Virus record (IMG/VR): IMGVR_UViG_3300026549_000001 | Coordinates: 186,569-250,568 of that record | Strand: one strand, 5' to 3' | Length of the DNA: 64,000 nt | Source of the DNA: a virus | Lineage: Duplodnaviria; Heunggongvirae; Uroviricota; Caudoviricetes | Made by a program: the position numbers and the translations under genes | Notes under the pieces: generated by a model | Database searches by the model: none | Told to the model about the DNA's origin: nothing | The model's input: only the letters and a program-made list of their open reading frames with translations | Part shown: piece after piece, positions 37,014-39,428 of the stretch | Numbering within the stretch: the stretch's first letter is position 1 | Layout: every line of letters starts with the position of its first letter

Positions 37014-39428
37014 TTACTCTAAATCCAAGTCAGTATATTCTTTCCCGTGTAATGTAATATATTCTTTTCTATCAGCAGAGTCGTTACCCATAAACAGTTC
37101 AAGATATTTCTCTGCTTCTTTAGCATCTTCCATTGTGACTCTTGTGAGATGTCTCGTTTCAGGAGACATGAAGATTGCCATAGTTTGATAATCCACCTCA
37201 CCCAGACCCTTGTTTCTCGATAATTTACATTTAATCCCATCTGTCATATCTTTCATTTCTTGGTCGGTAAAGGCATAGAGCATTTTTCCCTTATCTTTTC
37301 CCTCTAATATTTGAATTTCATATAAGGGCGTGTCCAAGAAATAAACATATCCTTGTTTTATAAGTTCAGGGGTTAGTCGATAGAATAGGGTAAGACAAAG
37401 TGCAATTATGTGGCAATTATGTACTATAATTCCTTCCAAATTGTCATCATCTACACAAACCATAAAGTTTTCATATCCTGGAACAGTCAAGTCATATACC
37501 TTAATAGGCACATCACAAACAATATGTTGCATAGACTTTATTCTATGATTATATATTTTTGAATGTCTGAAATAAATAGAGCTTATAGAATCATTTGGTG
37601 TTAGGCTTTGCGCTTCTTTATATGTACCATCATTTAGTAATATTCTATGGTCTGGGGTACATCTTACCACAAATCCATTTTCAAAGGTTAGCTCTACTAA
37701 TTCAGTTGTTTCCTTTGTTACACGCGGATTAACTGCTCTTGCGGGAACAACTTCTCCATTTTCATCTTTTGAGTATACCCACAACTCGGTAATGTTATTA
37801 TTGACTAACTCTTCAAAAGTATATGTATTCCCATCTAACGACTTAATTTTAGTGTCTCCAGTAAAGCACCCATCGGTGTCCTGGTCTGTAGCAAGAATTA
37901 TTTTATCGAATCTTCTGTTATTGATGTCAAAATTGCCAAGATTGTTTTTACCTTTGCCCCCATGCATTTCAACACCTGTACCAACTAATTTCATAATATC
38001 CATAATCAATTCATTTTTAAAGATACTACTATAATCAGCTTTTAGAGTATTTAATATTTTACCTCTTATAGCAAGAAGGGCTTGTGTTTCTCCATTTCTT
38101 GCTTGTTTCAAAGAACCCATTGCGGATAAACCTTCCGCAATAAAAAGTTCTCTATCTTCGGGGTTTTTATTTCGACAATCAACAAAATTCTTGATTCTAT
38201 CATCTAACTTCATTTTGTTAGATAGTTTTTGTTTAGTTGCTAATTTCTGTGCGGTTGCGCTCTTTCGAGATTGCACATTAATTGATACCTGATTGGTTAC
38301 TTTTTCAAGCTCTAATGGGTTTTCTTTTGCCCAATCCCTCAAAAACTTTGTTATCTGTTGAGCTAAAAATTCCTCAATGAATTTATTATTTATAGCCCTC
38401 TTGGTTTGGTTTTCGTATGAAGTTTCTGTACTAAAGGTATTTGACAGGAAAATCATTGAGTCCTGTATGTCCTCAAATTCAAGTTCCTTTGCTCTGTTGC
38501 TATCTGTCTTTTTTAATTCTGTTTTAAAGAACTCTAAAAGTGCTTTTTCTTTTGCTCGTCTGGGAGAGCCACCATATAGTAAAGGGGAGGAGTTGTGGAA
38601 ATATAGAGAATTTGGACTTTTATTACCAAATAAAATAACTACTTCTCCTTTTACCTTATAATTAGGCTTATCGGCTCTATCTTTCCCCGCACCTTCAAAT
38701 GTAAAATTAATGGCATCAGTTAGTGTTTCATTTCCCGCAAGTTCTTTTGCAAATCCTAAAATACCATTAGGATAAACTATTGTTTCTTTAGTTCCATCTC
38801 TTTTATCTATAAAATTAAAGGTTAATCCAGCATTTACAATTGCTTGTTCTTTTAACATTTGTAAATACCATTCTTTGTCAATATTGATGTCGGTAAATAC
38901 TTCTATGTCAGGCTTAAATATTTGCTTCGTTCCTGTTTTCTGTGGTTTGGCAGTATCTTTCTCTTTAATTAAGTTTCCGACAGGTTCGCCCTTTTCAAAT
39001 GACATTTTAAAGATTTTTCCATCTCTTCTTGATTCCACCTTAAACCACTCGGACGATGCTTGAGCCGCAAATGTTCCCAACCCATTAATTCCTAAACTAA
39101 AATCATAAGAATCATTGGAATATTTTGAACCAGAGTACATCTCGCAGAAAATAAGCTCCCAATTATATCTGTCTTCTGCCTTATTATAGTCCATAGGAAC
39201 TCCCCTACCAAAGTCTTCTACTTCAATAGAGTTATCATTGCCTATAGTTATATTTATGGTGTCGCCATAACCGCTTCGAGCCTCATCAATAGAGTTAGAA
39301 ATAATTTCAAAAACGGCGTGTTGTGTTCCCTGAATATCATTAGAGCCAAGCATTACCCCTACTCTTTTTCGTATTCTATCTGCCCCTTTAAGTGAACTTA
39401 TACTGCTATCATCATATTTTTTTGCCAT
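37014..39428 (-). CDS. type II DNA topoisomerase, GyrB-like ATPase/TOPRIM subunit (T4 gp39-like), containing a mini-intein
   Basis: ATPase EIISNSIDEA; TOPRIM EGLSAMGS and IILATDQDTDG; extein resumes CHIIALCLTLFYRL...PLYEI, matching GyrB [13 protein letters not shown]...PLYKV. Confidence 0.8.
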   Translation of the reverse strand: MAKKYDDSSISSLKGADRIRKRVGVMLGSNDIQGTQHAVFEIISNSIDEARSGYGDTINITIGNDNSIEVEDFGRGVPMDYNKAEDRYNWELIFCEMYSGSKYSNDSYDFSLGINGLGTFAAQASSEWFKVESRRDGKIFKMSFEKGEPVGNLIKEKDTAKPQKTGTKQIFKPDIEVFTDINIDKEWYLQMLKEQAIVNAGLTFNFIDKRDGTKETIVYPNGILGFAKELAGNETLTDAINFTFEGAGKDRADKPNYKVKGEVVILFGNKSPNSLYFHNSSPLLYGGSPRRAKEKALLEFFKTELKKTDSNRAKELEFEDIQDSMIFLSNTFSTETSYENQTKRAINNKFIEEFLAQQITKFLRDWAKENPLELEKVTNQVSINVQSRKSATAQKLATKQKLSNKMKLDDRIKNFVDCRNKNPEDRELFIAEGLSAMGSLKQARNGETQALLAIRGKILNTLKADYSSIFKNELIMDIMKLVGTGVEMHGGKGKNNLGNFDINNRRFDKIILATDQDTDGCFTGDTKIKSLDGNTYTFEELVNNNITELWVYSKDENGEVVPARAVNPRVTKETTELVELTFENGFVVRCTPDHRILLNDGTYKEAQSLTPNDSISSIYFRHSKIYNHRIKSMQHIVCDVPIKVYDLTVPGYENFMVCVDDDNLEGIIVHNCHIIALCLTLFYRLTPELIKQGYVYFLDTPLYEIQILEGKDKGKMLYAFTDQEMKDMTDGIKCKLSRNKGLGEVDYQTMAIFMSPETRHLTRVTMEDAKEAEKYLELFMGNDSADRKEYITLHGKEYTDLDLE
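37416..37868 (-). other. mini-intein (151 aa) inserted in the TOPRIM domain of the GyrB-like gene
   Basis: begins CFTGDTKI (block A), TPDHRIL (block B), ends VYDLTV...ENFMV...GIIVHN followed by +1 Cys; host protein motifs are contiguous when the segment is removed. Confidence 0.75.

What the first reader, a model, noticed from the sequence alone, without database searches (positions are those of the whole stretch)
37416..37868. 151-aa mini-intein in the TOPRIM domain of the GyrB-like topoisomerase II subunit
The TOPRIM motif IILATDQDTDG is followed by CFTGDTKI... (intein block A), TPDHRIL (block B) and a C-terminal ...VYDLTV...ENFMV...GIIVHN followed by +1 Cys. The host sequence then resumes CHIIALCLTLFYRL, which aligns with GyrB [13 protein letters not shown]. 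There is no endonuclease domain, so this is a mini-intein.

Insertion at the catalytic acidic cluster of TOPRIM is a classic intein 'hot spot'. It adds a third class of parasitic element to this window.
Basis: partly seen in the sequence, partly recalled or inferred. Interest (0 to 1): 0.55.

Follow-up and report, generated by a model that had tools for sequence, protein, structure and literature searches.

The report
Mini-intein in phage topoisomerase gene
A 151-residue self-splicing protein insert (a mini-intein that has lost its homing nuclease) sits next to the metal-binding active-site motif of a jumbo phage's GyrB-like topoisomerase subunit; the call is correct and well supported, but it is an ordinary example of a well-known kind of selfish element.

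Summary
Window 37416..37868 (minus strand, 453 nt) is an in-frame 151-aa insert in an 804-aa GyrB/ParE-like gene (37014..39428, minus strand). It lies between the TOPRIM motif DQDTDG and CHIIALCLTLFYR.

It passes the curated intein models: Pfam PF14890, TIGR01445 and TIGR01443. It has every class-1 catalytic residue: Cys1, T71-x-x-H74, Asp126, His150-Asn151 and Cys+1. It is predicted with pLDDT 95 to adopt the HINT fold of the DnaE, DnaB and RecA inteins.

A 91%-identical allele of exactly 653 aa (804 minus 151) lacks the insert. So do 113 of the 120 closest homologs.

A related phage contig carries, at the same site, a 420-aa version with an HNH_3 endonuclease. The window's copy is that element minus 269 aa, cut at the domain boundaries. 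dN/dS of the shared splicing domain is 0.11.

Splicing itself is inferred, not shown. With no nuclease, the element is probably no longer mobile on its own.

The same site is occupied in six other metagenomic GyrB-like proteins and in one 231-kb IMG/VR phage. TOPRIM holds at least four other intein sites. Verdict: a new member of a known kind, of modest interest.

The parts
37014..39428 (-). GyrB/ParE-like type IIA topoisomerase B-subunit gene. The precursor is 804 aa (91.4 kDa). The predicted spliced product is 653 aa (74.2 kDa).
   Evidence: ORF. Pfam HATPase_c, DNA_gyraseB, Toprim and DNA_gyraseB_C. NCBIfam gyrB/parE models match at E 1e-92 to 1e-126 but below their equivalog cut-offs. Best solved relatives are S. 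pneumoniae ParE and GyrB chains. Masses.
37869..39428 (-). N-extein, residues 1-520, ending in ...KIILATDQDTDG.
   Evidence: Alignment A1. Junction DNA.
38121..38135 (-). TOPRIM catalytic-Glu motif E432-G-L-S-A436. This clade has EGLSA where GyrB usually has EGDSA.
   Evidence: Invariant E432/G433/S435/A436 in alignment A1. Aligned to EGDSAGG of ParE.
37869..37886 (-). TOPRIM acidic cluster D515-Q-D517-T-D519-G520 (DxDxDG). The intein starts immediately after G520.
   Evidence: D515/D517/D519/G520 are invariant in A1. Aligned to DADTDG of S. pneumoniae ParE.
37416..37868 (-). Mini-intein, 151 aa (17.3 kDa), protein residues 521-671.
   Evidence: PF14890, TIGR01445 and TIGR01443 score above their cut-offs. 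PDB sequence hits to RadA, NrdJ-1, DnaB and DnaE inteins. AF2 pLDDT 94.9. Foldseek TM 0.78-0.87 to intein structures. Absent from P0002, P0004, L002 and L003.
37830..37868 (-). Block A: C1-F-T-G-D-T-K-I-K-S-L-D-G, with Cys1 as the first nucleophile.
   Evidence: C1, G4, T6 and G13 are invariant or nearly invariant in intein alignments A2 and A3.
37647..37658 (-). Block B: T71-P-D-H74 (the TxxH motif).
   Evidence: T71 and H74 are invariant in A2 and A3. The DNA was read.
37563..37568 (-). Junction R101|H102, where the HNH endonuclease domain (269 aa, 807 nt in the L001 allele) is missing.
   Evidence: L001 11021-11875 aligns to window 38420-37566 and L001 12685-13233 to 37563-37015. Gap analysis. 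HNH_3 is found in the 420-aa relative. The only pLDDT dip (mean 71) is at residues 101-110.
37482..37499 (-). Block F core: V124-Y-D126-L-T-V.
   Evidence: V124, Y125 and D126 are invariant in A2. The DNA was read.
37416..37430 (-). Block G: I-I-V-H150-N151 (penultimate His, terminal Asn).
   Evidence: H150 and N151 are invariant in A2 and A3. TIGR01443 hit.
37014..37415 (-). C-extein, residues 672-804 plus the stop codon. It begins with the +1 Cys (codon 37413..37415), followed by HIIALCLTLFYR.
   Evidence: Among 86 inteinless homologs scored at this position the residue is S, M, F, L, Q, K, Y, W, N or A, and never C.
34400..36421 (-). Partner A subunit (GyrA/ParC-like, 673 aa). Included as context: it forms the cleavage core together with TOPRIM.
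   Evidence: PF00521 at E 2e-103.

Best explanation
This is a class-1 (canonical) mini-intein in the GyrB-like subunit of a jumbo phage's type IIA topoisomerase.

Shown: a 453-nt in-frame element encoding a complete HINT splicing domain is inserted directly after the Mg2+-binding DxDxDG motif of TOPRIM. Close relatives have an empty site or, at the same site, a 420-aa intein carrying an HNH_3 homing endonuclease. The window's copy equals that element with the 269-aa endonuclease module removed at the domain boundaries.

Inferred mechanism: the 91-kDa precursor is translated, and the intein folds on its own.
1. Cys1 performs an N-to-S acyl shift, assisted by T71/H74.
2. The +1 Cys attacks the thioester (trans-thioesterification).
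3. Asn151 cyclises, assisted by His150 and Asp126, and releases the 17-kDa intein.
4. An S-to-N shift leaves a normal peptide bond, ...DQDTDG-CHIIAL..., in a 74-kDa active subunit.

Inferred history: an HNH intein homed into this gene lineage and later lost its nuclease. The element is now kept only because precise splicing is needed for an essential replication enzyme. It is immobile unless a nuclease acts in trans or ordinary recombination moves it.
For: - **HMM membership above curated cut-offs.** PF14890 57.8 against 35.8, TIGR01445 44.1 against 24.5, TIGR01443 22-27 against 15.6.
- **Catalytic residues.** All are present and are invariant across relatives.
- **Predicted fold.** AF2 gives pLDDT 94.9 and pTM 0.88. 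The best PDB folds are the Npu DnaE, Mtu RecA, Npu DnaB and Ssp DnaB inteins at TM 0.78-0.87.
- **Empty-site alleles.** P0002 is 653 aa and 91% identical, reading DQDVDG|LHIISL. L002 and L003 align on both sides of the window and skip 37413-37877.
- **Full-length allele.** P0003/L001 has the same junctions, and its splicing domain is 85% aa and 80% nt identical. HNH_3 (30.7 bits against a cut-off of 24.8) lies between SSIYFR and SKLYNH.
- **Purifying selection on the splicing domain.** dN/dS is 0.11 at dS about 1.
- **+1 Cys.** It is seen only in intein-bearing alleles.
- **Composition.** GC of the intein (0.329) is like that of the exteins (0.344 and 0.361) and the window (0.335). The insertion is therefore not recent from a foreign background.
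- **Same site elsewhere.** It is occupied in P0129, P0130, P0196, P0250, P0275 and L025.
Against: - No experimental or proteomic evidence of splicing exists; competence is inferred from residues, fold and selection.
- The residue usually written as the block F His (HNF) is Glu here (YENF). The HNH-bearing relative and several other inteins share this, so it is probably tolerated.
- dS is close to saturation, so the dN/dS value is approximate.
- The direction of change (nuclease loss rather than gain) is inferred. It rests on the general intein life cycle and on HNH-bearing copies at this site in three other hosts (P0003, P0129, L025). It does not rest on a rooted phylogeny.
Confidence: 0.88

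Rival explanations
1. The insert is a decayed, splicing-dead intein remnant. The gyrB-like gene would then be a pseudogene, or would produce a permanently interrupted, inactive subunit.
For: The endonuclease has already been lost. Block F has Glu where many inteins have His. The protein is a singleton cluster seen on one or two contigs.
Against: All residues that carry out the four chemical steps are intact. dN/dS is 0.11 for the intein and 0.04-0.05 for the exteins. The reading frame is open across 804 codons. The model is confident throughout except at the deletion-junction loop.
Confidence: 0.05
2. The insert is not a true intein. It would be another HINT-family module (a bacterial intein-like or pretoxin-HINT domain), or a stable inserted domain that stays in the mature enzyme.
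For: PF07591 PT-HINT also matches (30.8 bits against a cut-off of 27.7). BIL domains appear among the fold hits.
Against: Intein-specific models score higher than PT-HINT. The insert interrupts a universally conserved motif of an essential enzyme, and orthologs lack it. It has both the terminal Asn and a +1 Cys that occurs only in insert-bearing alleles. A homing-endonuclease-bearing version sits at the same site. This is intein biology, not BIL or toxin biology.
Confidence: 0.02
3. The mini-intein is still mobile because a free-standing homing endonuclease acts in trans ('collaborative homing'). The candidate is the DUF7487 / phrog_3339 ORF that overlaps the start of the gene (39428..40309).
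For: A homing-endonuclease-like ORF lies directly upstream and overlaps the gyrB start. A distantly related ORF abuts gyrB in the IMG/VR phage L025, which has an intein at the same site. The host gene is strongly mosaic around TOPRIM.
Against: The same ORF tail precedes the inteinless allele in L002. The ORF is absent next to the HNH-intein allele in L001 and next to the inteinless L003. Its presence therefore does not track the intein. Its target site is unknown.
Confidence: 0.04
4. The intein has been retained as a post-translational switch. Conditional splicing (for example redox control through Cys1/Cys+1) would time the activation of the phage topoisomerase.
For: It sits at the active-site metal cluster, so the precursor is very probably inactive. 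It is under purifying selection after losing mobility. It has four Cys residues including C1, plus a Cys at +1.
Against: Purifying selection is expected for any intein in an essential gene. Closely related phages manage with empty alleles. No feature specific to conditional inteins was found.
Confidence: 0.05

Closest known systems
HNH_3-type gyrase subunit B inteins of bacteria and archaea. This is family 22, 'Gyrase subunit B intein', in the His-Me finger classification (PMC5714182). The Synechocystis Ssp GyrB intein is the classic example and the source of the engineered Ssp GyrB mini and split inteins (PMC2794532).
   Same: The host protein family is the same (GyrB). It is a class-1 intein ending in ...VHN. 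The full-length relative at this site (P0003) carries the same PF13392 HNH_3 endonuclease type. GyrB inteins are common: 33 bacterial (PMC4760082) and 61 archaeal (PMC9348778).
   Different: - The host is a jumbo phage. That classification listed 0 viral members.
- The window copy has no endonuclease, and this loss is natural, not engineered.
- +1 is Cys here, whereas it is Ser for Ssp GyrB (PMC2794532).
- The only GyrB site I saw outside TOPRIM was in the ATPase domain (GKF...YK.S|C). From memory that is where Ssp GyrB sits, but I could not verify its native site here.
- None of the 80 best cellular loci had the TOPRIM site.
GyrA inteins at the GQGNFG|C site of bacteria and archaea ('intein-containing DNA gyrase subunit A' in NCBI naming).
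   Same: They are the closest named sequence relatives: 45-57% identity, and the same CFTGDTKI...RCTPDHR...DGTYKEAQ...VYD(L/I)TV...VHN pattern. They are also inserted at the DNA-cleavage core of the same enzyme.
   Different: They are in a different subunit, at a different site and in cellular hosts. They lack the 6-8-residue acidic extension between blocks F and G.
Natural and engineered mini-inteins with solved structures: Npu and Ssp DnaB, Npu DnaE, and the Mtu RecA splicing domain.
   Same: They share the HINT fold (TM 0.78-0.87), the same size class (about 140-155 aa) and the same catalytic residue set.
   Different: Sequence identity is only 18-30%, and the host proteins differ.
[quoted passage not shown]
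   Same: It is an intein interrupting a jumbo-phage type IIA topoisomerase gene. The authors note that gyrase genes are frequent targets of mobile elements.
   Different: It is in the A subunit, inserted after the catalytic-Tyr region. It is full length with a LAGLIDADG endonuclease, and it belongs to an unrelated phage group.

Membership tests
Intein (class 1, HINT superfamily) | In-frame insertion in a conserved host protein, absent from orthologs, with the host sequence contiguous across the site. | tested here: met
   P0002 is 653 aa (804 minus 151) and 91% identical. 113 of 120 homologs are 640-680 aa. blastn of L002 and L003 skips exactly the insert.
Intein (class 1, HINT superfamily) | N-terminal nucleophile (Cys/Ser) and the block B TxxH motif. 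| tested here: met
   Cys1, and T71-P-D-H74, are invariant in alignments A2 and A3.
Intein (class 1, HINT superfamily) | C-terminal His-Asn, followed by a Cys/Ser/Thr at +1. | tested here: met
   H150-N151 followed by Cys672. TIGR01443 scores above its cut-off.
Intein (class 1, HINT superfamily) | Scores above the curated thresholds of intein profile models. | tested here: met
   PF14890 57.8 against 35.8. TIGR01445 44.1 against 24.5. TIGR01443 22.4-27.3 against 15.6.
Intein (class 1, HINT superfamily) | HINT fold. | tested here: met
   The AF2 model has pLDDT 94.9. The Foldseek top 10 hits are all inteins, at E about 1e-9 and TM 0.71-0.87.
Intein (class 1, HINT superfamily) | Actual protein splicing: excision plus extein ligation. 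| not testable with these tools
   Only indirect support is available: intact catalytic residues and dN/dS of 0.11.
Mini-intein | No homing-endonuclease domain between blocks B and F; size about 130-200 aa. | tested here: met
   The insert is 151 aa. No endonuclease family matches in Pfam, NCBIfam or PHROGs. The same-site relative has 269 extra residues including HNH_3.
HNH-type homing intein (mobile form) | An embedded HNH endonuclease able to cut the empty allele. | tested here: not met
   The domain is absent from the window copy. It is present in P0003, P0129 and L025 at the same site.
Curated GyrB intein allele (InBase 'Ssp GyrB' site) | Same insertion point in GyrB as the described cellular GyrB inteins. 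| not tested
   The native site of Ssp GyrB could not be looked up. No TOPRIM-site example carried an NCBI or UniRef name. None was found among 80 cellular loci.
Bacterial intein-like (BIL) / pretoxin-HINT domains | Located in variable, non-essential proteins; usually lacks the +1 nucleophile or the terminal Asn; performs cleavage rather than ligation. | tested here: not met
   The insert is in the invariant TOPRIM motif of an essential enzyme and has Asn151 and Cys+1. PT-HINT scores lower than the intein models.
DNA gyrase subunit B / topoisomerase IV subunit B (the host protein) | GHKL ATPase, transducer, TOPRIM and C-terminal tail domains, plus NCBIfam equivalog thresholds. | tested here: inconclusive
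   All four Pfam domains are present. NCBIfam gyrB scores 389 against 882 and parE 358 against 900, both below cut-off. The host is therefore a phage type IIA B subunit, not assignable to gyrase or to topo IV.

The most novel reading that the evidence does not exclude
The mini-intein is no longer just a selfish remnant. It has been retained as a conditional, post-translational switch. Because it sits directly after the Mg2+-binding DxDxDG motif, the precursor would be inactive, and splicing (for example gated through Cys1/Cys+1 redox chemistry) would time the activation of the phage topoisomerase during infection.

A milder novel reading is also open. TOPRIM of phage type IIA topoisomerases may be an undescribed multi-site intein hot spot. 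It shows at least five sites within about 95 residues and up to three inteins in one TOPRIM, with related inteins switching between neighbouring sites.
Probability: 0.07. Interest if true: 0.65.

Novelty: new member of a known kind. Interest (0 to 1): 0.3.

Why it matters
- **Annotation.** The gene encodes one 653-aa topoisomerase subunit plus a 151-aa intein, not an odd 804-aa protein.
- **Evolution.** Closely related phage sequences supply all three stages of the intein life cycle at a single site: an empty allele (L002, L003), an HNH-bearing allele (L001) and a nuclease-less allele (the window). The host gene is also visibly mosaic. This makes a compact natural test case for homing, co-conversion and endonuclease decay in jumbo phages.
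- **Practical use.** It is a small natural Cys1/Cys+1 mini-intein with known native exteins, and could be tried as a splicing tool.
- **Limits.** None of this changes what is known about inteins. GyrB and GyrA inteins, HNH inteins and mini-inteins are all long established.

Tried and rejected
- Megablast of the gene against 50,697 GenBank phages gave no match. tblastn gave only hits below 46% identity, all in two pieces flanking the intein.
- tblastn of the intein against those phages gave 4 hits, none in a gyrase gene.
- The word-index protein search with the intein alone returned only 7 partial proteins. It missed even P0001 and P0003, so it says nothing about distribution.
- The exhaustive search is ranked by summed score and is dominated by multi-intein proteins. 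I re-scored it per domain.
- The contig look-up for P0005, the inteinless protein on a 253.9-kb contig, found no record.
I used A4 and A3 instead.
- I considered that this intein family might be specialised on topoisomerases. I rejected that as a strict claim, because equally close relatives sit in family A DNA polymerases and many sit in terminases.
- I considered that the upstream homing-endonuclease-like ORF is linked to the intein. That is not supported, because it also precedes an empty allele.
- Weak lead only: the C-extein is slightly closer to the HNH allele (83.1% nt) than to the empty allele (78.1%). This could be a co-conversion tract, but over 402 nt with near-saturated synonymous sites it is not significant.
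- The native insertion site of the Ssp GyrB intein could not be verified from the papers I could read.
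Full report
**What is there**

The finding's coordinates are exact, but the feature is on the minus strand. The ORF 37014..39428 (-) encodes an 804-aa protein. It carries the four domains of a type IIA topoisomerase B subunit: HATPase_c, DNA_gyraseB, Toprim and DNA_gyraseB_C.

NCBIfam gyrB and parE models match at E 1e-92 to 1e-126 but in two stretches, the first ending at residue 521. They score below the equivalog cut-offs. I therefore call the protein GyrB/ParE-like rather than gyrase.

Residues 521-671 (window 37868..37416, 453 nt) read CFTGDTKI...RCTPDHRILL...KVYDLTVPGYENFMV...GIIVHN. 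They are preceded by IILATDQDTDG and followed by CHIIALCLTLFYRL. A GyrA/ParC-like partner gene lies downstream at 34400..36421.

**Is it more than chance, and is it an intein?**

On its own, the 151-aa segment passes the curated thresholds of three intein models:
- PF14890 Intein_splicing: 57.8 bits against 35.8, E 1.4e-15.
- TIGR01445, the intein N-terminal region: 44.1 against 24.5.
- TIGR01443, the intein C-terminal region: 22.4 against 15.6.

By sequence it finds the solved RadA, NrdJ-1, DnaB and DnaE inteins. An AlphaFold2 model built from a 36-sequence alignment has mean pLDDT 94.9 and pTM 0.88. Its best structural matches in the PDB are the Npu DnaE, Mtu RecA, Npu DnaB and Ssp DnaB inteins, at TM 0.78-0.87.

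The residues that carry out class-1 splicing are all present and are invariant in alignments of relatives. These are Cys1, Thr71/His74 (block B), Asp126 (block F), His150-Asn151 (block G) and Cys at +1. One minor deviation is Glu in YENF, where many inteins have His. The HNH-bearing relative and several other inteins share this.

No endonuclease family matches the segment in Pfam, NCBIfam or PHROGs. An intein HMM run on the six-frame translation finds no second intein in the 64 kb.

**Empty and full alleles**

The large protein search returned the identical protein (P0001) on a 250,591-bp metagenomic contig. It also returned P0002, which is 91% identical and exactly 653 aa, that is 804 minus 151.
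- In the alignment, P0002, P0004, P0005, P0008 and P0023 run straight from D.D.DG to xHI.
- 113 of the 120 best homologs are 640-680 aa.
- At the DNA level, two inteinless contigs (L002, L003) align to the window on both sides and skip 37413-37877.
- The residue at +1 is S, M, F, L, Q, K, Y, W, N or A in inteinless homologs. It is Cys only in the two intein-bearing alleles. This is what one expects if the Cys is there for the intein.

P0003 (1077 aa, contig L001) has an intein at the same junctions, but it is 420 aa long. Its splicing domain is 85% identical in protein and 80% in DNA to the window's. A PF13392 HNH_3 endonuclease (30.7 bits against 24.8) lies between SSIYFR and SKLYNH.

The window's intein is this element minus 269 aa (807 nt), joined at R101|H102, which is window 37568/37563. 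The only low-confidence stretch of the model (residues 101-110, mean pLDDT 71) is that junction loop. Comparing the two splicing domains gives dN/dS of 0.11 at dS about 1.0. The C-extein gives 0.05. The domain is therefore under purifying selection, although dS is close to saturation.

**Position in the enzyme**

The inteinless homolog aligns with S. pneumoniae ParE (4juo) as KIIIATDQDVDG-LHIISLCLTLFYR against [25 protein letters not shown].

From established knowledge of GyrB, the DxDxD aspartates bind the catalytic Mg2+ of the DNA-cleavage centre together with the Glu of EGDSA (E424 and D498/D500/D502 in E. coli). The insertion corresponds to the bond between G503 and S504 of E. coli GyrB. 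This numbering comes from memory and was not computed here. The precursor is thus very probably inactive until spliced, which is an inference.

**Mechanism**

The mechanism is inferred from the family. It is the canonical four-step class-1 pathway:
1. N-to-S acyl shift at Cys1.
2. Trans-thioesterification to Cys+1.
3. Cyclisation of Asn151.
4. S-to-N shift.

The products would be a 74.2-kDa subunit with the sequence ...DQDTDG-CHIIAL... and a free 17.3-kDa intein, derived from the 91.4-kDa precursor (masses).

**How widespread, and what are its relatives?**

An exhaustive profile-free search found 4501 proteins at E<=0.001. I re-scored them per domain and read the flanks.
- The same site (DxDxDG|C...HN|[CS]) is occupied in P0129, P0130, P0196, P0250 and P0275, which are diverse GyrB-like or T4-like topo II proteins.
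- It is also occupied in a 231-kb IMG/VR phage contig, L025, as a full-length HNH form.
- All of these are unnamed singletons from metagenome assemblies.

The TOPRIM region holds other intein sites:
- ELFI|C...HN|CEGDSA
- EGDSA(xG)|C
- YDKIIxx|C...HN|CDxDxDG
- one site inside DAD|C...|CDG

In addition, there is one site in the ATPase domain. P0129 carries three inteins in TOPRIM, two of them separated only by CDSDADG.

In one genome per species of GTDB, at least 72 of the best 80 relatives (45-53% identity) are GyrA inteins at GQGNFG|C, in Chloroflexota, Acidobacteriota, Armatimonadota, Thiomargarita, Methanoperedens and Woesearchaeota. None is in a cellular GyrB TOPRIM. That scan was seeded with the patterns CFTGDT[KV]I and Y[TS]FEELVN, so it is biased towards this sequence type.

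Equally close relatives sit in family A DNA polymerases, and many IMG/VR relatives sit in terminases. The intein lineage is therefore not confined to topoisomerases.

No GenBank phage genome in the 50,697-record collection has a related intein in a gyrase gene.

**Mosaic host gene**

P0003 is only 33-57% identical to the window protein over residues 1-360, and 82-97% identical from residue 361 onward, including the intein. P0005 shows the reverse pattern: 88-100% up to about residue 400 and 55-65% from residue 481. P0008 switches at about residue 244.

This fits recombination or gene conversion around a homing site, but it does not prove it. The C-extein is only marginally closer to the HNH allele than to the empty allele, 83.1% against 78.1% nt.

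**Comparison with what is known**

- GyrB inteins are well documented: 33 bacterial (PMC4760082) and 61 archaeal (PMC9348778).
- The Ssp GyrB intein, which ends GVFVHN|S, has been engineered into mini and split forms (PMC2794532).
- A LAGLIDADG intein interrupts gyrA of Staphylococcus jumbo phages (bioRxiv 10.1101/2020.12.14.422802).

Against this background the window's element is a new member of a known kind. It is a natural nuclease-less derivative of an HNH-type intein, in a phage host. I found its TOPRIM site only in uncurated data and could not check it against InBase.

**Verdict**

The element is real, almost certainly splicing-competent and probably immobile. Interest is modest at 0.3. 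It rises slightly above routine because empty, full and mini alleles at one site are available from related phages, and because TOPRIM appears to be a crowded intein target.

Noticed in passing
window 39428..40309 (-): A 293-aa ORF whose stop overlaps the gyrB start. It matches DUF7487 (47 bits) and PHROG 3339/12131, annotated 'homing endonuclease'. The same ORF tail precedes the inteinless allele in L002, but the ORF is absent upstream of gyrB in L001 and L003. An ORF with the same repeated KxYGV motif (L025 4683..6248) directly follows the intein-containing gyrB of an unrelated 231-kb phage.
   Followed up: partly
window 36547..36990 (-): A 147-aa ORF with no family match sits between gyrB and gyrA. 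L002 and L003 have only about 25 nt there, and L001 has an N6_N4 DNA methyltransferase instead. The gyrB-gyrA spacer looks like a variable cargo slot.
   Followed up: partly
window 37014..39428 (-), compared with P0003, P0005 and P0008: The host gene is strongly mosaic. Identity to relatives jumps abruptly at about residues 244, 361 and 481 (for example 33-57% rising to 82-97% for P0003). This suggests repeated recombination around the TOPRIM region.
   Followed up: partly
window 38121..38135 (-): The TOPRIM catalytic-Glu motif reads EGLSA in this phage clade (window, P0002-P0005, P0008), rather than the usual EGDSA found in more distant homologs.
   Followed up: no
P0129 (1357 aa); also P0130, P0161 and P0250: These metagenomic GyrB-like proteins carry three or four intein-like inserts each. 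In P0129 two inteins are separated only by the seven residues CDSDADG, so both flanks of the metal-binding motif are occupied.
   Followed up: partly
P0042, P0043, P0066, P0077 and P0082 (homologs about 50% identical): A different intein occupies a second TOPRIM site, RELFI|C...HN|CEGDSA. It occurs as full-length HNH (P0042, 389 aa), intermediate (P0066, 212 aa) and mini (139-154 aa) forms, which is a second decay series.
   Followed up: partly
L085-L164 (GTDB genomes): The closest cellular relatives of this intein are almost all GyrA inteins at GQGNFG|C, spread across bacterial and archaeal phyla. Both subunits of the cleavage core are hit by related inteins.
   Followed up: partly
window 49574..63056 (-), plus 27345..27420: There is an array of 18 (ARAGORN) to 20 (Rfam) tRNA genes, all on the minus strand like every long ORF in the window. 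Two are unusually long and score low: tRNA-Asn 49574..49663 (90 nt, 37.5 bits) and tRNA-Tyr 55076..55162 (87 nt, 33.3 bits). Two Rfam hits (60553..60623 and 60824..60901) are not called by ARAGORN.
   Followed up: no
window 1..64000: Rfam at gathering thresholds finds no group I or group II intron in the window, only tRNAs.
   Followed up: partly
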